A DNA stretch of 64,000 bases from Chrysomallon squamiferum (Eukaryota > Animalia > Mollusca): positions 15,562,001 through 15,626,000 of the forward strand of contig CM022677.1 in the NCBI GenBank assembly GCA_012295275.1, given 5' to 3'. The notes beneath the pieces are model-generated. The model had not been told where the DNA came from, ran no database searches, and was given only the letters and a program-made list of their open reading frames with translations. This document shows positions 9,555 to 56,001 of the stretch, in pieces. The number at the start of each line of letters is the position of its first letter. Positions within the stretch are counted from its first letter, which is position 1. The translations under genes were made by a program, and so were the position numbers.

Positions 9555-10860
9555 GCGAATATATTGATATTCTCTCCCTTTAACATGAAAAAGAATAACC
9601 TCTCGGATAGAGTTATGTCCCCGTTGTTACATTTTTTCTCCTTGATTATTCAGGTTAAAATAAACATATTCCTATATAGATTTATCTCCCTTTAACATGA
9701 AAACGAATAACCTCTCGGATGGAGGTATCTCCCCTTTGTTACATTTTTCTCCTTGATTATTCAGGTTAAAACGAACATATTCCTACATAGAGTTATGTCC
9801 CCTTTGTTAGATTTTTCTCCTTGATTATTCAGGTTAAAAGGAACATATTCCTATATAGTGTTATCTCCCCTTCGTTACATTTTTCTCTTGATTATTCAGG
9901 TTGAAACAAACATATTCCTATATAGAGTTATGTCCCCTTTGTTAGATTTTCATCCTTGATTATTCAGGTTAAAACGAACATATTCCTATATAGATTTATC
10001 TCCCTTTGTTACATTTTTCTCCTTGATTATTCAGGTTAAAACGAACATATTCCTACATAGATTTATCTCCCTTTGTTACATTTTTCTCCTTGATTATTCA
10101 GGTTAAAACGAACATATTCCTACATAGAGTTATGTCCCCTTTGTTAGATTTTCTCCTTGATTATTCAGGTTAAAACGAACATATTCCTATATAGAGTTAC
10201 CTCCCCTTCGTTACATTTTTCTCTTGATTATTCAGATTAAAACGAACATATTCCTATATAGATTTATCTTCCTTTAACATGAAAACGAATAACCTCTCGG
10301 ATAGAGTTATCTCCCCTTTGTTACATTTTTCTCTTCATTATTCAGGTTAGAACGAACATATTCCCATATAGAGTTATCTCCCCTTCGTTACATTTTTCTC
10401 TTCATTAGGTTAAAACGAATATATTCCTATATAGATTTATCTCTCTTTTGTTACATTTTTCTCTTGATTATTCAGGTTAAAACGAACATATTCCTATATA
10501 GAGTTACTCGGCGAAGTAAAGGCTATATTGATTACAGTTTAGTGATATGTGCTCACAAACATAGAATAGAGTTAGGTCCATTACATGAGATGTACTCAGT
10601 AAACAAATTAAAAATTATATCGATTAGACTTATCTCCCTTTAGTAATATGTGTTCACAAACATAGATTAGAGTTATGTCCCTTATGTGAGATGTACTCAC
10701 TAAGCAAAGTGAAAATTGTATCGATTACAGTTATCTCCCTTACGTGATATGTACTCACTAAATAAAGTAAAAATTATATCGATTAGAGTTATCTCCCTTT
10801 AGTGATATGTACTGGCAACTTTAGCCTTACGTGAGATGTACTCACTAAGCTTACGTACGC
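9555..10860. repeat. Satellite array: ~68-bp units (to ~10505), then a second related unit type; both built on GAGTTATCTCCC(C/T)TT
   Basis: Unit TCCTATATAGAGTTATCTCCCCTTTGTTACATTTTTCTCCTTGATTATTCAGGTTAAAACGAACATAT, period 68 (9781 to 9849). A variant subunit TTTAACATGAAAACGAATAACCTCTCGGAT occurs at ~9578, 9690 and 10273. From ~10520 the units carry GATGTACTCACTAAG. Confidence 0.92.
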
Positions 10861-13811: not shown

Positions 13812-15332
13812 TTATTCTTCTGGATTTGTGGAACATGGTTGCTTGAATACTTGCCCTTTTTCTAGAATCCAGTAAATTGATACCCATTTAGAGCCAATAA
13901 GAACAGGACAAGCTCCATGAAGTGTCATTTTGTTAGGTGAACCATTCCGATATAAATTATACCAAAATATAGCTGCACCTGCTTTAGGTTGTATTCTTAC
14001 ACCAAGATGAAGAAACACTGTTGCACCCACTTCAACATCACTCAAATAGTTTAACCATGTGGCAATTCTGTTTTCACCGGAAGAATCTGCTATGTTGAAA
14101 TAGTCAGTATGAGCCGTGAACTGTCCGCCTATTCCATAGTTTGCCACCTAAAGTGGTTCTGAAGCTTTCATTGAAAGACCTGTGATTGCTTCAATTCTTT
14201 TCTGACTTCTCATGTCTGCTTCTGTGAAAGCTCTTCCTAGAAAATTATTTTTGCTAATTCTTGTCTCAGATTTGAAAATGTTTCCATAGTGATTGATTTC
14301 AGATGCTTGTAAAAGTGGCATAGAAACTGTTTTAATGTCTTCAATTGCAGCATCACTGATAAAATCATGATAGAGAAATTTTCGGTGAGAAATGCAGAAT
14401 CTTTTCTTTGGCAGGCTTAAGAATTAGAAGCGGATTTTTGTTGTTGTAATGGTAGCGACATTTCAGACGATGTCTCTGTCGTATTTTAATAACGTCTTCA
14501 CCACGACAGAGAGCATCGAGAGTTGTTTTTTCTTTAACTCTGGCATTTTCTTTTCTCTTTTCTTTCCTACATTTTGATACACTTCAAAACTTTTTCCTCC
14601 TTTTCGGATCACGTTCTAGTTCAGGAGCTAACATTAATTGTTTATTTGTCAAATTTAAAAAGTGTTTTATCTGTCCCTCTAATTCTCTGCCGTGTATTTC
14701 ATAGTCATGAAATTCTATCCGAGATACATTCTGAATTGTTTCCGTTCTTTTTTTCTCAAGACTTATCTCCATCCAAATATGCACATATTTGTATTTTGTC
14801 ATTTTGTATGCGATGCGACCTAATTGATAACAGTCTTCTGCTGATAATCTCTGTATATATCGTTCATATATAAAACCGTCTGCTAATCTCGTCGCATTTA
14901 ATTTGTATGTATCCTGAAGTCGGAACAGAGCTGCAGCGGCCCTTCTAAATCTTCGTAACTTGGAAGCTGTTCACGAATTTCTTGTAGTTCAGTCAGCTCT
15001 GTCTGGGACGTAATACTTTCGTGAAGAATAGGCTGCACATCTCGTTCCCAGTCCAAAGTGAAACGTTTAATATATAAAAATGCACCAATCGGGTTGGCTA
15101 TGTAACGATTTGGGTCTTTTAGTGCGATCGAAAAGTGATGTTCAGTTTGATTTGAAATTGTTTTCAACTTTTCCAATTTAGTTCCTTGTTCATGAACGTG
15201 ACTGAAATTTCTTAATGTTGTTGCCAAGTCTCTTCCTGCTAGTACAGAGCTGTAGAGATGTGATACGGACGTAAACAGTTCTGAATTCACAGCTGATAAA
15301 AGCGAAACTAAAGTAATGTACTGCTGATACAT
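13812..15332 (-). pseudogene. P4HA: Intronless prolyl 4-hydroxylase alpha subunit pseudogene (collagen P4H alpha family)
   Basis: Signal-like N-terminus, then ELFTSVSHL, YIANPIGAFLYIKRFTLDW, LPSYEDLEG/AAALFRLQDTY, LCRGE, LKCRY, PLLILKPAKE, LYHDFISD, RISK, RIEAITGL, ANYGIGGQFTAHTDYF (HxD), NRIATWLNYLSDVEVGATVF, AIFWYNL, TLHGACPVLIGSKW (His, Lys). Several frameshifts and a TAG at 14148-14150 where LQVANYG is expected. No introns over 1.5 kb. Confidence 0.93.
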
Positions 15333-15679
15333 ATTTAAAGGTATCTACCAGCGATATGAATACCTAAATATTTGGTATAAAAATAGAGTTATGATGATAT
15401 AATTCTAAATATATATCAGGTTATTGAACTGGTGGGGGCCATCTTAAACATTTTATTTTATTTCTGTTTTTTATTTTAGTACAATTTTTAGTTTTAGTTT
15501 TTCTTAATTTATTTTATGAATGTGTTTCAATAAATGACAGTTTTAATAGAAAATGTTTTTATACAAAATCATTAAACCTTATTTCATTTCACTTTATATT
15601 TTTTATTTTTCATTCTTTCTCTGTAGAGGACTAAATGATAGAGGACTACTTTCTATGAATTGTCTAGAATCTCCTCTTA

Positions 15680-22111: not shown

Positions 22112-24782
22112 CAGTGATTCTCAACCGCCGTGTTGCGACACACAAGTGTGTCGCGAGGCTCCCTCAGGTGTGTCGCGAAACTTTGTGACGAACACCTGAA
22201 AACACGGACAATTTGCATAAATCTCGGTTTCATGTTCTACTAATATGCCTTGGAGGAAGGAACTTCCTTTCTCCAATGAATATGCACACATTCAAAGTGT
22301 ATGCACTCCAATGAATATGCACACCGATCAGTGGCGGCCACCAACCTTTGCACCTTTCGCTCAAGGTCGATCAGTTGCCCATGAGACGTCAGTGTGATAG
22401 GTTGTGTGTGTGGTGTTGTCGAATTAACTTCGCTGTGTTTTAAATTATTGTCATTCTTAAACACTTATTAGTAAAGAGATGTAGCTAACTAGGTGTATTT
22501 AGTTAAGAAATTATGCTAGTTAGAACAGACTTTGCAAATGCAAATCTGTCGTCACGGCAAATCTGTCGTCACGGCAAATCTGTTCAGTTTACAGTGTTTA
22601 CTATTTACTTACATCGAACTCAATCGTACTGCACACTCAATTTTGACCTCTAAATTACAGATGAATTTAAACTAAATTAGCTTGTGACTAATCATAACTA
22701 GTTTAACGCTGCCTGTTGTTTACTGTTGTTGGTTAGAGTACGCGCGTGTTAATTGCTTATGAATACCCCCTCACAATGGATAAATGTGTTAAAAGGAAGG
22801 ATGTTAGTGACGGGTGTGAGGTTAAAACAGAACATACAATGAAGCCCACAAAATCCAGCACGAAAAAGGCAAAAGTTCACCATAATAGACGGTACTGTGA
22901 TGATTATTTGAAGTTTGTATTTTCTTGGTCAGGAGATGTTGCTCAACCATGTCCATTATGTATAGTTTGTGGTGAAAAAATGGCCAATGAATCCATGGTA
23001 CCAAATAAATTACTAAGACATTTCACGACTAAACATTCCTACCTACAAGATAAAGATCTTAATTATTTTCAAAGACTGTTACAACAGCAATCAAAGCAAC
23101 GCAATGTTTTTCAGAAAACAATGACCGGGCTCAACTCGCAACAATTGAGGTAGCTGAAATAATAGCAATGAAATCCAAATCCCACACTCTTGCTGAGTCA
23201 GTTATCCTTCCCGCTTGTAAAAAGATGGTGAAATCCATGTTAGGTGAAACAGCTGAAAAAGAAATTAGTAAAATTCCGCTTTCAAATGATACAATACACA
23301 GGAGAATTGTAGATTTATCTGAAAACATTGAAACTAATGTTCAGAAAAAACTTGAAGGATCTAAATTTGCTTTAATAGTTGATGAATCGACCGATATCAG
23401 TAACAGTGCTCAATTGCTTGTATTTGTTCGTTTCATTAATGATGATGAAATAATCAGTCAGTTTTTGTGTTGTAAAGAAATGCCAACAACTACTAGAGGT
23501 CAAGATATTTTTGATATGATAACCGGCTATCTTAAAAAAATGAATTTGACGTGGAAGTTTTGTGTTGGTATTTGTACTGATGGTGCACCATGTATGGTAG
23601 GCTGCATTAAAGGTTTTGCATCACTAGCACGGAAAGAAAATCCAAATCTTGTTCGTACTCATTGCTTTTTACATAGAGAAGTTTTAGTTTCAAAAGTATC
23701 ACAAGAAGATTTGAAGCAAGTGTTACATCAAGTAGTTGAAATTGTCAGTTACATTAAAAGCAGGCCAATAAAGTCGAGATTATTCGAAGAACTATGCAAA
23801 TCAATGGATTCTCAACATGTTCGCTTACTCATGCATACCGACGTTCGATGGCTGTCAAAAGGTAAAGTGTTAACTCGCGTTCATGAATTACAGAAGGAAT
23901 TAATAGTATTTTTTGATAAAGAAAAGAACGAAAGATTTTGTAAATATCTTCGATGTGAATTTTGGATGGCCAAAATGGAATATTTAACGGAAATATTTGG
24001 ACAACTTAATATTGTGAACAGTAGTATGCAAGGTCGAAACGAAAATATTCTAACTTCGACAGATAAGTTGGTTGCCCTTAAAAAGAAAATTGTTATTTGG
24101 AAAAACAGAGCAAAGTCGGGTGAGTTTGATATGTTTCCTACAATGCGTACTAACTGCACTAAAGAAATGATCCCTATCGTGGTTGAGCATCTGACAGCGC
24201 TCGAAGAAAACATCGACCACTACTTTCCGTCGCTGAACACTGAAAAGTACGACTGGTTCGTAATCCTTTTGTAGATGTTCCTTCTAATATTGGGTTTAAA
24301 TTATGCGAAGAAGAAGAATTGGCTACCATTTCAAGTGACAGCAGTCTTAAAATAAAGCATTCTGAGGTAGATATCGACACATTTTGTATTTCAATACAAA
24401 AGGAATTTCCCGCATTAGCTGAAAAAGCCCTATTAGTTCTTTTACAATTCTCTACTCCTTATTTGTGTGAATTGGGCTTTTCAACCTTAAATAATATAAA
24501 AAAATAAGAAGAGAGAAAGATTACGTTCCACTGAAGAAGAAAGGAGAATTTGCTTTCGCAAAATATTCAAGAAGTCATAAGACAAAACCAGGAACAAGTT
24601 TCACACTAGGTAAGTGGCAATTCTGGGATACTAACATAATAAACTGTTTCAGACAAGTCCATATACGTATTTTTTAATTTATTTTACGATTTCATCATAT
24701 AATATTTAAAATTATTACTGTGTCGCGACAGTTTCATGCGCTCGTAGATATGTCGAGAGTAAAAAAAGGTTGAGAAACACTG
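22112..24782 (+). mobile_element. Full-length hAT DNA transposon, Buster/Charlie group
   Basis: TIRs CAGTGATTCTCAACC (22112) and GGTTGAGAAACACTG (ends 24782). Perfect 8-bp TSD AATTAGAT (22104-22111, 24783-24790) with the central TA typical of Buster elements. Subterminal TGTCGCGA repeats at both ends. Confidence 0.96.
22776..24609 (+). pseudogene. Buster-type hAT transposase (ZBED5/ZBED8/SCAND3-like family), frameshifted
   Basis: MDKCVKRK start; BED finger CIVC...KLLRHFTTKH; PLSNDTIHRRI, DESTD, CTDGA, HCFLHRE, DVRWLSKG, LCELGFS; ends QVSH-TAG at 24609. Frameshifts near 23130, 24258 and 24500. Confidence 0.93.
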
Positions 24783-30069: not shown

Positions 30070-30266
30070 TAGCTCGTGGACTAGACATCGTCTGAAATGT
30101 CGCTTCCATTACAATATCAAAAATCCGCTTTTAATTCTTATGCCTGCTAAAGAAGAGAGTCTGCATTTCTCACCGAAAATTGTTCTCTATCATGATTTTA
30201 TCAGTGATGCTGAAATTGAAGACATTAAAACAGTTTCTATGCCACTTTTAAAAACATCTGAAATCA
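30070..30266 (+). pseudogene. P4HA: Second P4H alpha fragment (inverted paralogue of ~14295-14480)
   Basis: RHRLKCRFHYNIKNPLLILMPAKEESLHFSPKIVLYHDFISDAEIEDIKTVSMPLLKTSEI matches the minus-strand copy. Confidence 0.9.
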
Positions 30267-30930
30267 GTTGTTATCAAAAGCATCTTTTGCAATTAATGTT
30301 AAAATTGGAGGCCATAACAGAGAAATAAATAAAAATAATAATAATAATAATAATAACCCACAAAATAACGCAGTCATCAATGTTTATCCTGTGACAACTG
30401 ATAGACCATTAACATTTGTAATAAAAAAATATTCCAGTTTTATGTTACTTTAATCTTTAGAAATCTGCACTCTGGCTAAAACAGTATATCACGTTCGTCT
30501 CAACGAATCATGCGGTTTTGACAGCGTCCACTGTATTTATATTTATTGTTTATATTTTAGTTATTTATCACATTATTAATAGATACGGTATATTGATATT
30601 CCTGGAAGGTACCTACACATTTACATTTATTACTCATTATACAGCTATATACGACGTTTCGTTATCAGCGATTTTCTGTGGTGTGCAGTGACGTTACGAC
30701 ACCGAGAATCCCACAAACAGAAAAAAGAAAGAAACTACAGCTGAAGGGAGATTACTCTCATATAATTTTTTATTTCGGGGGGAGGCGGAATTTCTACTGT
30801 TATTTGCGGTATTTGTTATTTATGGGTTGTTTTTTTCAGTTAAATGTAGATTCTAAGAATCACTAAGAATTGATTTCTTTATATAGAATAGGTAGAATAT
30901 TACTTTCTTGAAATGTTTCCTTGCTTTTTT
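30267..30930 (+). repeat. Inverted copy of ~11385-11995 (downstream flank of the P4H pseudogene)
   Basis: TTTTGCAATTAATGTTAAA.TTGGAGGCCA, CAGCGATTTTCTGTGGTGTGCA and GCTGAAGGGAGATTACTCTCATAT match reverse complements at 11950-11980, 11617-11640 and 11543-11568. Confidence 0.88.
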
Positions 30931-31068
30931 CTTTATTCTTTATATACTTTGGAGTCCATATTTGTAATTTAGTTTGTAAAATATTTCGTCGTCTGCTTTT
31001 TGGAAAGTTTTCAAGGGCAGATAATCGAAAATGAATTATTAAACAATACGTTATAGAATCATGAGTGT

Positions 31069-31104
<36 letters not shown>

Positions 31105-32985
31105 TAATTTTGCTGAATTTTTATTGATCAATCAAAAGAGTAGTCAATTATATTTTGCTTTTCATTTAATTATTATGTAATTATATTTATCCCTTAACTT
31201 ATAACAACACAAAGAAAAAAAAAAAAAAAAAAAAAAAAAAAACAGGAGATTAAAATGACAACAAAATATCATTGATATCACTGATATGAAGGAAGTAACG
31301 AATTTTTATCTGAATAAAATTTGCTGGTATTTTAATTCATAATCTGTGGAAAATCTGAGATTCATTTCAGTTATTTGGCAAACAGAACACTGAATATCTC
31401 GTACAGTTTCAAACCAGTATACACATGTTTTATATCAAAATGATGATTTCTAAGTTTTACTATATTTTTAAGCATGATGCAGAAAGCAACAACTTTTAAT
31501 TAACTGCACTAAATAGCTCAGATGTACCTTACAGTTTAATTATTAATTTCCCAATTTAAGTAACTGTTAATTCATTTATTTCAGAAATTTGGCAGAGTAT
31601 AAACAGAAACACAACTGAGGAAAACCCTTTCAAGGAAGGAAATTAAGATCACAAAAATGTGTTTACCTTTGCAGCAGCATAGAGACAGTTTTACATAAGA
31701 TTTAGGTAAATTGATAAATGTCTTCCTTGTATTTGAATACTCTGCAAGTCTTTGAATCAATCATTGTAAAAGAGAGAAAACAGATTTCAATATTGCCTAA
31801 AATACTACAATGCCTCCACTTAATTTCATAATAAAATGTTTTTCTTTTTTCTTTTTTAGATCTCACTGTGTTGAAGACATAAGTCAACATGACAGATTTG
31901 AATTGTATCCAGTTTTAGTTCACGTTGTATTTTATACATCAGTCAAATAATGTGGAAAAATTCAGATTTTAGGAAAATAAATTTTGTTTCGTCTTCACTA
32001 AAGGAGATGACTGCTGCTTGTTCTCTCAATCATGATGCTGTTCGGAGACTACATTGTTACTTTAAATTCAAACTATAAAACTGTAATTTATCTGTATTTT
32101 TGTAATAATGAATAACAGCTGAAGGTTTCTAGTTTCAAGATTTATATCTGATTATCTACAAAATTTCTGACACTGTTTATTTTTTATGTATATATAATTA
32201 TTGTTCTCGAATAAGATGGCTGCCATCATGTGGCAATTCTGTATAACATTCTTCGAACATAAAATAAAACTGTAAATCCCTAAACACCGGCAATCACCCC
32301 GCGATCATTTCCGCAACAACTATACCCAAAAAAAATACAATGCAAATAAAACAAATAAAGGAATATAATAACCTTTATTACAATATACGTACCAATTATA
32401 AATCGATATGGTTCTTTTGTCAAATAAACGGTGTTGTTATTTCCGCCTCCCTAATTTTTCTTTCTTCTTCTTAATTTATTTATGTTAATACACCAAATAA
32501 AATCACAAAGTGTAGAACTCATTTTAAACTGTGTAGTCTGGGTAAGGTGTCTCATATGTGAAAACTGGGCGTGCGTTAAAACAACAAATAATCCTGGCGT
32601 GTTGAAATGTTAAATAAAAACATATGAAAGTAAATATGTTTTAATATATTTGCGAAATTTCAATTGTACTGTTGTAACATTTCTTTTGATTATTAATATT
32701 AATGTGTGTGCGTGTCCGTTTAAAACTGTATTAAAAAGTGGTTAAAGTGAATCAAGAAAACGTGACACAATGTAATGAAATAATGAGTCAAGACAAACAC
32801 ATTAATGTTGTTAGGATATGAAATGACTAAATACATGAAGATTAACAATGAAAAAATATTTTATTACAGCATATTTCTATTGTGTTAGCGTCTGTAAAGA
32901 TAAAAAGGAGTAAAGGAGGTGACTAGGGAAATGTTTCTCCACCTCAGTGTGGTCAGTAACTAGTATATCTGACAAAAATATTATA

Positions 32986-33333
32986 ATGAAAGATAACGAA
33001 CAACAGAAAGAAGAAGAGGAAGAAGAAGAACGTTACTTATACATATTAATCGTTTTAATGCACAAAGGAAAACGTGTATTGGATAAAAAGGAAGTTACTC
33101 GTCTTTGGGCAATAGCATAATCTAAAGTATTAAATATATTACAACAGTTAAATGTGTCTAGGGATCAAGCTCAAGAAATCTGGTTACAGATTCGACGTAG
33201 ATATCCAGATTTGCAAATACCGAATTCAGAGTTCTATTCGGCAACACATAATCTTTGGCAAGAATATAACAATACTGAAGATTCGAACGAAGAGGACACT
33301 TTTGATTCGCCTTTATTCTCAGAAGACAACTGA
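32986..33333 (+). pseudogene. Acidic 116-codon ORF of the viral island, one in-frame stop
   Basis: MKDNEQQKEEEEEEERYLYILIVLMHKGKRVLDKKEVTRLWAIA*SKVLNILQQLNVSRDQAQEIWLQIRRRYPDLQIPNSEFYSATHNLWQEYNNTEDSNEEDTFDSPLFSEDN*. It ends 18 nt before the capsid-like ATG. Confidence 0.55.
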
Positions 33334-33351
33334 AGACAAACAAAAGAAACA

Positions 33352-35024
33352 ATGAAAAGGCACAAAGAAGAACCAATAAACCCACCACCAAATAAGAAAC
33401 GTAAAGAAAATCCAGTTATCTACAACAGTATCTGAAGATGTTGTAGAAAACACTAGAGCGAAAGGAACGTATCTACAACCAGAAGAAAGTGTGATGGATC
33501 CTGATTCGGTCACAGGAAACGAAGTCACTCCAACTGTGCAAGGAGCACCTATGTTCTCTATCACAGATTTGGAGGAACAACAACAGCGGCTAATCCTAAG
33601 TATATCAAAGTAAAAAGAACATTTAAACGTAAATTTACTAGAGTTTAAATTTTACTAAATTAAGAAAAGCAGAAATGAATATTCTGTATAACGGCGTAGA
33701 TCAAATAGGTTGGCCCAATGCTATTGGAGATCCATCCGTATGTAAATTTACTTTTAATCATGGTGGTCATATAATACCTTATTGGTATAAACAAGCTAGT
33801 ACTAAACCTGAAGATTGGAATTTACAAGATGAATTTGTAGGTTATAGTATTAAAAAGTTTGGATTCAATATTAATAATGATTCATGTTTTAAACAATAAT
33901 AAGGCTGATCCTAATGAAGTTCCTGCTATGGCTCCACCAAATGCTAGAGTGTGGACTTTTACTGATACCAACAAAAAATACAGGTGATTATAGTCATAAT
34001 AATTTATTTAGAGATGAAGAATGTATGGATCAAACCGATGAGCGAAGTATCAAGGTACAACCTGATAGAAATATTTATTTGCCACGTAATATAGGAATGC
34101 AGGTTTAAAATAATGCTTGGACACTGATTGGTGATAATATAAAAATGTACATAACTGACACCTAATTATATTTATGATTTAAAAAAACATGACGGTTACA
34201 TAGAAACTGTAATTAGTGCAGGAGGGTTTGCCTTAGATTATGAATGTAAAGATGCTCCTCTAGTATTATTTCAGTCAAGTTGCTGGTAACGTAAATTGGA
34301 GTAATTATCAATTTAGTAATGAAAGTGCAAAATATTTTGAAGTGTGGCCAACGGATGAAATAACAGTAACTGATACCACTCAACATCCAATGGGAAAAGC
34401 TATGACAGGTTATTTTAATCATCAGAATCAAAATGTTGATTATAAAGCATGTTTTCAGAATTTAGTTAGGTGAACCAGCAATGGCAAATGATAGTATCAA
34501 AATAAATTGATAAAAAAAGGTGTGACAGCAAATGATACAAGTGATCAAAATGTCAAAACAGAAATGGACGGAAGTCATCGTAGAACATATGACTGTAACA
34601 GACCACCAATGTTTTTAATAAGTATTTATCCGGATGTTGAAAGAACAACTAATTATCACGCTAATCTTCAAATAACGCATTATAGTGAAGTAGAGTTCAT
34701 AGTTAGGACTGGTATGTGTCCTAAATACATTCCTATTGGACTTGGTGGTTGCCCTGGTGTTATGAGAGGAATGTTTATACTGTGGTTGCTGGTAAAAAAG
34801 ATAATATAAAACATACAGAACAAGAACATTTTTTATCTGAAAAGTCTAAACAATATTTCGAGAGAATTAAAAAATCTTGGCAACTACGAACAGACGCTCC
34901 AATATGGGATAATTGGAATAGAAGAAAACCTAGTCGGCGGTTGTTTTGGCCTATACATGGTGTTTATGTTGATAGGACTGTACCTGTCGTTGGAAATGAA
35001 AATGATTGGAAATATCCTTTATAA
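33352..35024 (+). pseudogene. Parvovirus-like capsid (VP) gene with multiple frameshifts and stops
   Basis: Stitched frames: MKRHKEEPINPPPNKKRK (NLS-like) ... RFGGTTTAANPKYIKVKRTFKRKFTR ... FNHGGHIIPYWYKQASTKPEDWNLQDEFVGYSIKKFGFNINN ... APPNARVWTFTDTNKKY ... YIYDLKKHDGYIETVISAGGFALDY ... RPPMFLISIYPDVERTTNYHANLQITHYSEVEF. Order and spacing recall the jelly-roll strands of invertebrate and hamaparvovirus capsids. Recognised by eye only. Confidence 0.6.
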
Positions 35025-35264
35025 ATTTCATTAAAATTAATTTTATTAATAACTATATTGTTATTTAATACAAAATTAATTTATTATATATTACATAAAA
35101 TAAGGTTTAAACGAAGAGCTTAGTTTTGGACAATATTTAATTCTTCATTATTATTACTTTTTAAATTGAATAAAATGTATTCTGTTTTTATTTATGTATT
35201 TATTTATTTATTATTATTATTATTGATAAAGCAAAATGTAATTTTAGTGATGAGCTCATCTATA

Positions 35265-35390
35265 TTTAGTCGACGTCAGAAAGTCGAAGCCGATTGGTCA
35301 ATTTGAATATTACGTCATTGGCAACAAGGCAACTAGCAACTAGACAATTAGCAACAAAAGTCAGCTGCAGTTGTGTTTATAAAGCGAACA
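35265..35390 (+). promoter_or_regulatory. Compact promoter in the viral island
   Basis: GACGTCA and TTACGTCA (CRE/ATF-like), two ATTGG, four (G/A)GCAAC repeats, CAGCTG, then TATAAAG at ~35378, about 28 nt before the ATG at 35406. Confidence 0.5.
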
Positions 35391-35405
35391 CAAAAAAAAA
35401 AAAAA

Positions 35406-35525
35406 ATGAAGTGGTTATCTTGGTGCTGCCCGTGTGTCAAGCGTCGAAGACATAAAAGAAAATTCAGAAAAATGATTGAGGCTAAACAAGAAGTGCTAAG
35501 TGGTATTAACTATGAATTCAAATAG
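35406..35525 (+). CDS. 39-aa basic, Cys-containing small ORF (viral island)
   Basis: MKWLSWCCPCVKRRRHKRKFRKMIEAKQEVLSGINYEFK*, directly after the TATA box. Confidence 0.4.
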   Translation: MKWLSWCCPCVKRRRHKRKFRKMIEAKQEVLSGINYEFK

Positions 35526-35735
35526 ATGGTAATTTACAAGTATAAATAGGCAGACAAGTATGTCAGGTGACTAATTACAAATATCGCCCGTTTCTACAAT
35601 GTCAAAAGATAATATATGTGTTAAACGTACATTATATAACTGTAATCACAAATAATAAAATAATAATCTAAACCCAAAAATAACAAACAATAACATATTA
35701 ATATAAAACTTTATCTAATTGTTTACTATTTGCAG

Positions 35736-36040
35736 ATATTATTTTGGAGGACCTGGAGGAAACCGTGATTGAGTTGAATTTGGTATCGGACGCGTACACT
35801 AGCGAGGTGGAGAAACTGTTAACACTCTGGGAATACCGCATCGGGGAATACCATCTGAATATTGCTGAATGCATGGACCATCCAAAGTTTAATCTGTTTA
35901 AATAATTTGATTTGTTCTGGCGAAGCAACGAAGATATGCGAGCTGAGCTATACGCACTTCGAAAGCCGCCAAAACGCTACTACGAGCTTCTCAGAAAGAA
36001 CAAAGAGTTGTGCAATATTCTCACAGATTTATTGTATTAG
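35736..36040 (+). pseudogene. ~100-codon spliced-type ORF of the viral island, one internal stop
   Basis: CTAAT branch + TTTGCAG acceptor (35735). (D)IILEDLEETVIELNLVSDAYTSEVEKLLTLWEYRIGEYHLNIAECMDHPKFNLFK*FDLFWRSNEDMRAELYALRKPPKRYYELLRKNKELCNILTDLLY*, with TAA at 35903-35905. Confidence 0.5.
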
Positions 36041-38103
36041 AACAAAACTTTGATCTGTCTGTCAGTCTCCTTTCCTTAGGTTCTTCTACAATAGAAAACA
36101 GACTTTACTCTCTGTAAAATTACTAATTGTGTTATATTTCTTTTTACTTTTCCTCTGTTGGCTACAATTTTATTTCACGGGAGCATTAATTTCATTATTT
36201 ATTATCTATTTATAAGTCAATATTATTTATTTATTTATTTATTTATTTATTGCTTTATTTCTTGCTTTATTTCTTTAGTTAATTAGATTTTTTTTTTTGT
36301 TGTTGTATCTTAACGTAACATACATTCTGTACCACTTATCAGTTTAAACTGAATAAAAAGCCATTACTAAACATATTCTTTCATTATTTGTATGTATGTA
36401 TAGATATACATACATACACACTATAAACACATGCCTGCATACATACCCACGTGCATCGAAAAAATACCCACATATACACTCAAACACATAAACACTCATA
36501 CAAACATACATTGGCTCATGGTATATTTGTGATGCATATGTTATAGAAAAAAGTATTTATTTATTTATTTATTTATTTTTATAGTTTTAAAAATTAGTTA
36601 TAGTTGTTATTATTCAGTTTCTGTTAAGTCACACTGCACACTGGATATAACTGAAATTCATTCACAGATAAAGCACTGAGGATTTGTAATGCTACATAAT
36701 ATACATTTATCTAAGAAAACAAGTAAACTGTAATCTGTCTCTTAAAATAAAACAGCTGAAAGAAACATTTCTTCATTCTTTGATGTATGGGCCAGTGATA
36801 AGTGTCTATCTATGTTTCAATGTGTGCATGAGTAAGTACTTGTGTAAGTCTGTATGCATGTTTATTTGTGTATTTGAGGTATGTGTTTTTATATGTATTT
36901 ATGCATGTGTATCTGTGTGAGTTTATATTATGTGCATTTGAGTGTGTATATACTTGTGTAAGTCTGTATACATGTGTATTTGAGTGTATGTATTTTTATA
37001 TGTATGTATGCATGTGTATCAGTGTGAGTTTATATTATGTGCATTTGAGTGTGCATATATTTGTGTAAGTCTGTATCTGCATGTATCTGTGTCCTTATTA
37101 TGTATGCATGACTGTGTATGTATTTCTGCAGGTTTGCATGTATATGTGTCTGTGTATGTTTGTATTGTATGTTTAAGTATGTATATATGTTTGTATGTCT
37201 GTATGTACGTGTGGATATATTTGTATTATGTGTGTGCTGTATGAGTGAATTTGTTTATTTAGTCAAATTATCTAGTGATCATGAATATGTTTCTGAATGT
37301 GTGTGTATGTGTGTGTTTTAGAATGTTTGAATGTATGTACTTATATCTAAGTATGTGTTTGTATTACTGTGTGTAAGTTTGGATGAAATCAATGCCAAAT
37401 AAATTATTATCTGAACACCAAAAACAAAAACAAATCTGAAAATAAATAAAGTATCTACCGTGTGTGTTATGTTGTTTTTTTACCTGCTGAAATTAAAGAA
37501 CAACAGAAATTGAATAAAATACCTATCTATATTTAATTATTTTAAATTTGTGTTTTTTTTTTTTTTTTAAATAATTAGTTACTAATTTAAAATCAAACCA
37601 CTCACATTAAAATAGAAAAATAAACATATTCCATAAACATACACAATTAAAAAAACTCATAATTCATCATAAACTAATACACACATATGCGCATACACAT
37701 GCACACAGGCATACCTATAAAAAATTCCATACAAACACAGATACAAAGACACACACTCACACAGAAACACATACGCATACACACACAGACACTCAGACTT
37801 GCACATATATAGACACACTCACAAAAATACAGCCACATTCACACACACAAACATACAAACTTAATACAAGACACATACAACTCACACACATATAAATACA
37901 AACATACACAGAACCATATATACAATTACATACATATATATATAACATCACCATAAAAACTCACTCTTACACATCATGCAAAGATAATTATGTAGAAACA
38001 AAATGACACACAGTGGTATAAAGAGATAAGAGGTATATAAAAATATCACTTGTTTGTAGGTAAAAAGAAGATGGAGGTAGAGCATGTCCCGGTGACAGAA
38101 GCA

Positions 38104-54584: not shown

Positions 54585-56001
54585 TACTCTCCCCAAAAAG
54601 AAACGCAAAAGTAGATTTTATTGACACTGGAAATATCTATCTAATGGAACAACAGAAAGCAGCAGAATGTTCACATTTTACACACACTTTCGCAATTCAT
54701 TAATATTGATGGTATTACCTTGAAAAGGTTAACGTTCAAGGTTATAACAGTATAATATCAATATCTTGTGTGCTAACCATGGGAGTCCAGAACTGCCTGA
54801 CATCTCCTTCCCATGGCAGTAATGACATTACCAATTACACCTTGTGGAATGGTGGCCCACTCTGTCTGTAGTAATAATGCCAACTGAGCACAATTCTGTG
54901 GCTGTGGTTGATGCTGTCTCAGTCATCTATCCAACTCTTCCCATAAATGCTCTATAGGGGTCAGATCTGCAGATTTAGAGGGCCAGGGCAGGACCTGAAT
55001 GTTATTGTGTAGGTACGCTGTTGTGAGTCTGGCTGTGTGTGGTCTCGCATTGTCGTGCTGGAATATAGTGTTACCATTATTCATGTAGCTGCAGAATTTC
55101 ATCTCAGTATCTCTGTGCTGTTCAGTTGCTTTGGATGTGAACCAGGTTGTATGAGATTGCCACCCACACCATCACACTACATCTGCCAAATCTGTCCGCT
55201 TCCTGATTGCAGTTTGCAGCAAAACGTTCACCAGGACGTCTGTAAACTCGACATCTTCCATCAGCTCGACAAAGCAGAAATCGAGCCTTGTCAGTACACA
55301 GGCAGTTCTCCATCGTAATTGAGGCCAGACTCTGTGCACTTGACACCACTGACACTGTCGACGATGTTGTTGAGTCAAAACCATTCTTCTTACAGGCTGT
55401 CTAGCTCGAATACCTGCCTTGTGTAAACAATTGTGCACTGTCTGAGCTGATATTCTAAGCAGACTGGTATTGCTGAAGCAGTAGAGGTTGCTGTGGTGGT
55501 TCTTTCCTGTAGATGAAGTACCCGTATGTAGCTGTCCTGGTCCCTGTGGTTACATGTGGTCTACCTGATCTGGGATGGTCACGTGTTGTTTGCTGTATCT
55601 GGAACTGATACCACTATCTCAAGATGGTTCTTGGGGATACATGGAACACCCGGGCTACGACTGAGAAGGATTACTCCAGCTTGTAAACAGCCGATGGCAT
55701 TGTTTCGTTGCGGTTCACTCACTCGTGTCATTTGTTTGATGTTGGGTTAGAACAAAAATAACGAACAGATGTATTCGAAAACCTTGCATTTTTATAACCC
55801 TTGTATTCAAGTTTCACGTGGTTTGCATGCGGGGACGTTCTGGCTAATAAACATGATCATAGCCTTTATTTTGTGTTACCTGCTTTTTTGCAACTGTAAC
55901 AAAAGCTATACATTTGAATCACCAAATGTCATTATATTCATAGTTTGTATGTGTCAGTTTACAATAGTTATCTAAGAAATCAACCATTTTTGGGGAGAGT
56001 A
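54585..56001 (-). mobile_element. Tc1-family (Tc1/mariner) DNA transposon
   Basis: Inverted ends TACTCTCCCCAAAAA / TTTTTGGGGAGAGTA, each flanked by TA; ~1.4 kb. Confidence 0.92.
54758..55731 (-). pseudogene. Tc1 transposase, disrupted
   Basis: MTRVSEPQRNNAIGCLQAG start; TDKARF (first D), GRCRVYRRPGERF, SVMVW, FQHDNARPH, WPSKSADLTPIEHLWEE; G*HTRY* end. Frameshifts and stops present. Confidence 0.92.

What the first reader, a model, noticed from the sequence alone, without database searches (positions are those of the whole stretch)
32525..36050. Degraded endogenous ssDNA virus with a divergent parvovirus-like capsid, hidden as fragments in the ORF track
Seen: a 3.5-kb island without microsatellites, richer in CpG than its flanks, in which short + strand ORFs stitch across frameshifts into one ~550-codon gene (33352-35024) plus neighbouring ORFs. 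It starts where an inverted host repeat stops (~32525) and ends where TCTG-type host DNA resumes (~36053). Knowledge: parvovirus VPs have a basic NLS-bearing N-terminus, a Gly-containing stretch, then jelly-roll strands; chaphamaparvovirus VPs carry a GWHIIP...P.QW motif. Inference: GGHIIPYWYKQASTKPEDW...GYSIKKFGFNINN and the distal RPPMFLISIYP...NLQITHYSEVEF are the equivalent strands of a possibly undescribed invertebrate virus lineage. I see no PLA2 motif.
Basis: partly seen in the sequence, partly recalled or inferred. Interest (0 to 1): 0.85.

Follow-up and report, generated by a model that had tools for sequence, protein, structure and literature searches.

The report
Fossil capsid of uncatalogued parvovirus lineage
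An animal genome, likely a snail's, carries a broken gene, likely present in several copies, for a virus coat protein whose intact relatives are predicted to fold like parvovirus capsids yet match no catalogued capsid family, so it likely records infection of molluscs by a little-described parvovirus lineage.

Summary
Observation largely confirmed. Window 33058-35024 (+) is one capsid gene of about 656 codons (not 550; it starts about 300 bases earlier), broken by about 10 frameshifts and 4 stops and 55% identical to an open 690-aa natural protein. That protein's model matches parvovirus capsids (VIA Z 14.7-9.5 for the top 20, next 6.0) but no Pfam or PDB sequence. About 50 relatives, mostly 650-820 aa on 3-7.5-kb contigs, share an N-terminal helical hairpin; one is labelled Parvoviridae sp., one comes from a sea slug assembly, one carries PLA2. 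Runs from three studies of the organism hold the gene, several breaks included, plus variant copies. No NS1 and no terminal hairpins were found. The chaphamaparvovirus link is not supported. The left boundary holds; the right does not: a small, spliced, more abundant orphan gene follows and the repeat unit runs to about 36200. Verdict: a defective, likely multi-copy endogenous element of an uncatalogued parvovirus-type capsid family; subfamily unplaced.

The parts
32200..32521 (.). Fragment of a dispersed host repeat, cut off at 32521 (left flank)
   Evidence: loose ends at 32521
32522..32956 (+). Upstream module of the element; 32592-32956 is shared with more abundant copies that continue into other DNA on both sides; no hairpin found
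   Evidence: tables 2, 7, 8
33058..33250 (+). 5' part of the capsid gene: N-terminal helical hairpin conserved in the family (one in-frame stop near 33120)
   Evidence: (E 4e-8)
33058..35024 (+). Broken parvovirus-type capsid (VP) gene, about 656 codons, about 10 frameshifts and 4 stops; jelly-roll core from about 33600 to 34720; no PLA2
35031..35405 (+). AT-rich 3' region and CCAAT-like/TATA-like upstream region of the small gene (motifs read by eye); other copies carry different DNA before 35031
   Evidence: loose ends at 35031
35406..36040 (+). Small two-exon orphan gene (about 135-140 codons; intron about 35503-35733); other copies are spliced in RNA; the window's copy differs at its splice sites and has an in-frame stop near 35900; viral or host origin not settled
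   Evidence: tables 7, 8; no homologue
36041..36214 (.). 3' end of the multi-copy unit; runs past 36053 into TTAT-type repeats
   Evidence: tables 2, 7, 8

Best explanation
This is a broken gene for a protein predicted to be a parvovirus-type capsid, fixed in the host's DNA and likely present in several copies, most likely left by germline integration of a defective piece of a virus from an uncatalogued parvovirus lineage. Shown: the gene's extent, its breaks, its 55% identity to an open natural relative, its presence in runs from three studies, and the lack of detectable NS1 or hairpins in this window. Predicted: the eight-stranded jelly roll and the N-terminal helical hairpin (modelled on the open relative). 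Inferred: a linear ssDNA virus of about 6-7.5 kb infected germ cells, part of its genome was joined into repeat-rich DNA by host repair, truncating a host repeat, the unit was amplified and then decayed copy by copy, and this copy makes no capsid. The basic stretch near residue 100 likely served as the nuclear-import signal of the parent VP.
For: Fragment 33642-33896 finds P0001 at 77% identity, E 1e-34. A profile of 30 relatives without the close one scores the X read-through at 289.6 bits against at best 5.7 in 200 shuffles. Model of P0002: strands at 189-204, 265-285 and 564-581 with block pLDDT mostly 80-95. All listed PDB Foldseek rows are parvovirus capsids, best E 2e-10; 49 of 50 BFVD rows carry parvovirus or densovirus names, 1 is unnamed; VIA top 20 are parvoviruses (Z 14.7, rmsd 4.5, 255 aligned, down to 9.5), next Z 6.0. 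Of 20 clusters looked up, 17 lie on contigs of 2.8-7.5 kb, 1 is 'Parvoviridae sp.' QKE54994.1, 2 lie on long ENA contigs. 1 of 40 scanned hits has a parvoviral PLA2 (PF08398, E 4.5e-11). 9 of 11 listed runs, 3 studies, one organism, hold the stretch or part of it; listed contigs span 5 of the 10 frameshifts without a gap, and up to 7-8 different contigs cover single positions.
Against: The fold was predicted for the relative, not for the window's gene; mean pLDDT 60.8, with 318 of 690 residues under 50. No NS1 was seen beside any relative because no relative's genome could be fetched (empty; one search gave one 1-kb contig). GenBank 'Parvoviridae' labels are often wrong, mostly for bidnaviruses (PMC13426907 section 4.1). 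No listed contig spans the whole locus or the 32956 junction (tables are cut). Contig depth is no copy number. The host's identity as a snail rests on earlier unreviewed notes.
Confidence: 0.72

Rival explanations
1. The capsid gene was captured as a cassette (32957-35030) by a multi-copy host mobile element whose own cargo is the small spliced gene, and spread by that element rather than as decayed virus.
For: Loose ends at 32956 and 35031 show copies that share both flanking modules but hold other DNA toward the capsid side; summed depth is higher on both modules than on the capsid gene in all 4 runs; the small gene is spliced in RNA. In another assembly the close relative occurs several times per contig, with open 690-aa frames one residue apart.
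Against: No terminal inverted repeats above AT-rich background, no target-site duplication seen, no transposase, Rep or helicase match among 116 ORF fragments in 29-40 kb. Internal deletions and concatemers of a virus genome give the same pattern. Depth of contigs cannot rank parts.
Confidence: 0.17
2. The parent virus was a bidnavirus-like or other pPolB-encoding virus that uses a parvovirus-derived capsid, not a member of Parvoviridae.
For: Relatives' contigs reach 6-7.5 kb, above the usual 4-6 kb. Bidnaviruses share the jelly-roll capsid and are often mislabelled as parvoviruses.
Against: Bidnavirus major capsids in one study are 515-615 aa, against mostly 650-820 aa here; one relative has an N-terminal PLA2; parvoviruses over 7 kb with NS genes are described (PMC9001828 passages).
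Confidence: 0.08
3. Assembly artefact or contaminating live virus.
For: No listed contig spans the whole locus; the best DNA holder may be the source sample.
Against: About 14 disabling breaks, several spanned without a gap by contigs from two studies.
Confidence: 0.03

Closest known systems
Parvoviridae capsids (PARV4 8ep9, Bombyx densovirus 1 3p0s, Syngnathus chapparvovirus 9nek, Zophobas black wasting virus 8tje)
   Same: Predicted eight-stranded jelly roll with long loops; VIA Z 14.7, 14.5, 14.1, 12.5; Foldseek E 2e-10 and 6e-10.
   Different: 7-15% identity in the structural alignments; no sequence match in PDB or Pfam; scores tie across subfamilies; conserved N-terminal helical hairpin; no PLA2 in this gene.
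'Parvoviridae sp.' hypothetical protein QKE54994.1 (P0025) and its unnamed Logan relatives
   Same: Same family by sequence (E 1.5e-33): helical hairpin, glycine-rich stretch, core motifs.
   Different: About 30% identical to P0002 in the core; found on virus-sized contigs. A link to the two atypical >7-kb goose-swab parvoviruses MT138329 and MT138334 (VP upstream of NS, extra ORF) is a guess that could not be checked.
Elysia marginata hypothetical protein GFR75904.1 (P0033)
   Same: Same capsid family, in a gastropod assembly.
   Different: 30% identical in the core, lacks the helical hairpin; lies on a 7,432-base contig, so it may be a free virus and not an insertion.
Parvovirus-derived EVEs of invertebrates (IHHNV EVEs of shrimp; megaparvovirus EVEs of beetles)
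   Same: Integrated, broken, hairpin-less viral genes in host DNA.
   Different: Those belong to characterised lineages and include NS1; megaparvovirus VP is 504-577 aa with no N-terminal extension.

Membership tests
Endogenous viral element (parvovirus-type) | Virus-derived coding sequence | tested here: met
Endogenous viral element (parvovirus-type) | Inherited in host DNA and disabled | tested here: met
   Host repeats and transposons in the window; about 14 breaks; held by runs of 3 studies with shared breaks
Endogenous viral element (parvovirus-type) | Host-element junctions spanned by single reads | tested here: inconclusive
   Only short contigs were available; none listed spans the locus
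Parvoviridae | VP with eight-stranded jelly roll and long loops | tested here: met
   For the open relative P0002, 55% identical
Parvoviridae | NS1 gene with HUH and SF3 helicase domains at this locus | tested here: not met
   No Pfam match in 222 of 823 ORF fragments scanned and no nearby Walker A motif; the locus is therefore not filed as a parvovirus genome. A very decayed NS1 could be missed
Parvoviridae | NS1 in the genomes of the free relatives | not testable with these tools
   No such genome could be fetched
Parvoviridae | Terminal palindromic hairpins | tested here: not met
   7 of 7 end windows fold no better than shuffles, z from -1.34 to 1.14
Parvovirinae / Densovirinae | PLA2 domain in the VP1 N-terminus | tested here: not met
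   None in the window fragments or P0002; present in 1 of 40 scanned hits
Hamavirinae (chaphamaparvoviruses) | VP begins at the first strand, with no long N-terminal region (PMC13426907 section 3.3.2) | tested here: not met
   About 185 residues precede the first strand
Hamavirinae (chaphamaparvoviruses) | Sequence homology to hamavirus VP | tested here: inconclusive
   No profile match to the solved chapparvovirus capsid; it is the top Foldseek row but tied with densoviruses
Bidnaviridae | pPolB gene beside the parvovirus-like genes | not testable with these tools
   No relative's genome available; none detected in the window
DNA transposon carrying a captured capsid | Terminal inverted repeats, target-site duplication, transposase | tested here: inconclusive
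   None found, but only one copy could be read and its right end is uncertain

The most novel reading that the evidence does not exclude
An NS1-free, multi-copy mobile unit of snail genomes that carries a parvovirus capsid gene beside its own spliced orphan gene, has been amplified in at least two capsid subfamilies, and still keeps open capsid frames in clustered copies: a capsid-bearing element between virus and transposon, derived from an unnamed parvovirus subfamily with 6-7.5-kb genomes.
Probability: 0.17. Interest if true: 0.75.

Novelty: new variant of a known kind. Interest (0 to 1): 0.5.

Why it matters
Parvovirus-derived fossils are common, so the kind of thing is ordinary. The capsid family is not: about 50 members with no Pfam or PDB sequence match, a conserved N-terminal helical hairpin, genomes likely at or above the family's upper size, and no known host. 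Endogenous copies are the standard way to assign hosts to such metagenomic lineages (PMC13426907 introduction); this one, with the sea slug record, points to gastropods, for which my searches listed no paper on a parvoviral EVE. Clustered open copies of the close relative raise a testable question of selection or recent amplification.

Tried and rejected
No host genome was held, so copy number, junctions and NS1 elsewhere could not be searched. Pfam and PDB sequence searches of the fragments gave only noise. A single-sequence fold failed (pLDDT 30.8). A word-indexed search with alignment A1 returned only P0001. Loci of relatives were not found in viral contigs or, save one 1-kb contig, in metagenomes; a window motif had no match in prokaryote genomes. 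Atlas hits for P0025 were parvoviral capsid clusters at 0.85-0.87, under the bar; the N-terminal hairpin gave no usable hit and only Z 4.5-5.0 helical matches. P0049 is a repeat-protein false hit. No bidnavirus is named among the 50 BFVD rows shown, which excludes nothing. No Rfam match. The bacterial promoter scan is irrelevant here. The tree was not built, so no nearest free relative is named. RNA contigs over the capsid gene have depth about 3-7 and no splice, so transcription of the capsid gene is not shown. Joints with 20-24 letters on one side were set aside as unreliable. No complex was predicted. The supplements of PMC9001828 and PMC13426907 were not read; the first may bear on which genome encodes QKE54994.1.

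Full report
Observation. The + strand of 33058-35024 holds short ORFs in all three frames. The 85-aa fragment at 33642-33896 found one protein among 12 candidates, P0001, at 77% identity. Its cluster has 13 unnamed ENA members, among them open 690-aa proteins P0002 and P0009. P0002 aligns to the window collinearly from residue 1 to 689. A frameshift-aware alignment gives 350 of 634 aligned residues identical (37% in the first 65, 65% in 186-425, 76% in 536-600), with frameshifts near 33410, 33560, 33640, 33880, 33970, 34150, 34270, 34460, 34500 and 34780 and stops near 33120, 33330, 34110 and 34150 (places are approximate). The CpG and repeat contrasts are real but weak markers.

What the protein is. 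A search of 1.84 billion representatives with P0001 gave 51 hits at E up to 0.001, 18 at 1e-30; one, P0049, is a false hit to a repeat protein. None of 40 scanned hits matches a Pfam capsid family; one (P0048) has an N-terminal parvoviral PLA2. Neither P0002 nor two family profiles match a PDB sequence. A profile of 30 relatives, built without P0002, scores the window's X read-through at 289.6 bits against at best 5.7 in 200 shuffles, so the window's gene belongs to the family on its own. AlphaFold2 on the 31-row alignment models P0002 with an N-terminal helical hairpin (residues 10-47, pLDDT about 86-92), a disordered linker holding the basic stretch, and a strand core from residue 189 to 581. 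Foldseek against PDB lists only parvovirus capsids (best E 2e-10); 49 of 50 BFVD rows carry parvovirus or densovirus names; VIA-align gives 20 parvovirus capsids at Z 14.7-9.5 and the next fold at 6.0. The top scores tie among a human parvovirus, a densovirus and a chapparvovirus, so the fold gives no subfamily. The hairpin is visible in most of the 31 aligned rows and has no usable match elsewhere.

Where the relatives come from. Of 20 clusters looked up, 15 are Logan contigs, 1 JGI and 1 an Elysia marginata record, all on contigs of 2.8-7.5 kb; 1 is GenBank 'Parvoviridae sp.' QKE54994.1; 2 are on long ENA contigs. All free relatives are 24-34% identical to P0002 in the core. No tree could be built, and no relative's genome could be fetched, so NS1 was not seen beside this capsid family.

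Endogenous state. 9 of 11 listed runs, from 3 studies and one organism, hold the stretch or part of it; 2 runs of another organism hold next to none. In 4 runs laid, listed contigs span the frameshifts near 33410, 33560, 33640, 33970 and 34780 without a gap, those near 33560, 33640 and 34780 in two studies. Other contigs differ by substitutions and small indels within the gene, with up to 7-8 contigs over one position, which points to several copies or alleles in different states of decay; depth gives no copy number. No listed contig spans the locus. Earlier unreviewed notes call this genome a snail's; I did not test that.

Anatomy. On the left a dispersed host repeat is cut off at 32521 and does not resume in the window. 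The module 32592-32956 is shared with more abundant copies that run into other DNA at both ends. After the capsid stop, loose ends at 35031 show copies with other DNA upstream. A two-exon orphan gene follows (35406-36040); RNA contigs of other copies show the splice; no homologue was found. Contigs cross 36053 and go on to about 36200. No hairpins (7 of 7 windows), no convincing inverted termini, and no NS1, Rep, pPolB or transposase match among 116 fragments in 29-40 kb; 106 further fragments gave only host and transposon families (222 of 823 ORFs of 35 aa or more were scanned).

Mechanism. Most likely (0.72) a defective piece of a linear ssDNA parvovirus entered the germline, truncated a host repeat, was amplified and decayed; the shared modules and the small gene would be the virus's control regions and an accessory gene, with NS1 lost. 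These steps are inferred. The main rival (0.17) is capture of the capsid cassette by a host mobile element; the loose ends at both edges of the gene and the clustered open copies of P0002 fit it, but no transposon ends were found. A bidnavirus-like parent (0.08) and an artefact (0.03) are less likely.

Comparison with what is known. PMC13426907 (abstract, introduction and sections 3.3, 4.1, 4.2 read; supplements listed, not read) defines the family by NS1, lists six subfamilies, says hamavirus and megaparvovirus VPs start at the first strand, and warns of mislabelled records; this VP fits neither lineage. PMC5013282 (passages) found parvovirus-related sequences in six molluscs, one likely integrated, branching outside known genera. 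PMC11357303 (passages) has no occurrence of 'gastropod' or 'snail'. bioRxiv 10.1101/2022.12.13.520061 (passages) gives bidnavirus capsid lengths. Searches for QKE54994 (0 papers), parvovirus + gastropod + EVE (6 papers, listing only), and related terms (listings only) showed no title on this capsid family or on a gastropod parvoviral EVE; the library lacks most subscription journals.

Verdict. A real, defective endogenous parvovirus-type capsid gene. It works like other parvoviral EVEs and is not filed in any subfamily. Its value lies in the uncatalogued capsid family, the likely gastropod host and the unexplained modular, multi-copy setting. Interest 0.5; new variant of a known kind.

Noticed in passing
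P0001-P0013 (ENA contigs of 8,418, 60,905, 297,455 and 452,437 bases): The close relative occurs as 13 cluster members on what appear, by equal contig lengths, to be 4 contigs, with at least 3 C-terminal ends on the 297-kb one; two open 690-aa frames differ by one residue. Suggests clustered, recently amplified copies. Host not known.
   Followed up: partly
window 35406-36040: Two-exon orphan gene, cysteine-rich and basic at its N-terminus, spliced in an RNA run and covered by more variant contigs than the capsid gene; no homologue found.
   Followed up: partly
window 13815-15344 (-), with inverted partial duplicates at 30083-30939: Intronless, frameshifted prolyl 4-hydroxylase alpha gene (PF08336, PF23558, PF13640) in the CpG-rich 9-25 kb region; part of that region is repeated about 600 bases left of the studied flank.
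   Followed up: no
window 31584-32030: Exon-like pieces joined by a GT..AG intron in an RNA contig (joint 31700-31855), in DNA covered by many variant contigs; gene not identified.
   Followed up: no
window 22737-24700: Long ORFs with a weak DUF4371 match (E 4.5e-5), likely a hAT-type transposase remnant (family label recalled).
   Followed up: no
window 54926-55549 (-): Tc1/mariner transposase remnant (PF01498, PF13358).
   Followed up: no
window 9560-10813: Array of 67-base and related tandem units at the left edge of the CpG-rich region.
   Followed up: no
L001 1-1011: A capsid-family fragment (53% to P0025) abuts a bacterial-looking ORF on a 1-kb contig; likely chimeric.
   Followed up: no
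P0033 (GFR75904.1): Annotated as a sea slug protein but on a 7,432-base contig, the size of the free relatives' contigs; may be a co-assembled virus.
   Followed up: no
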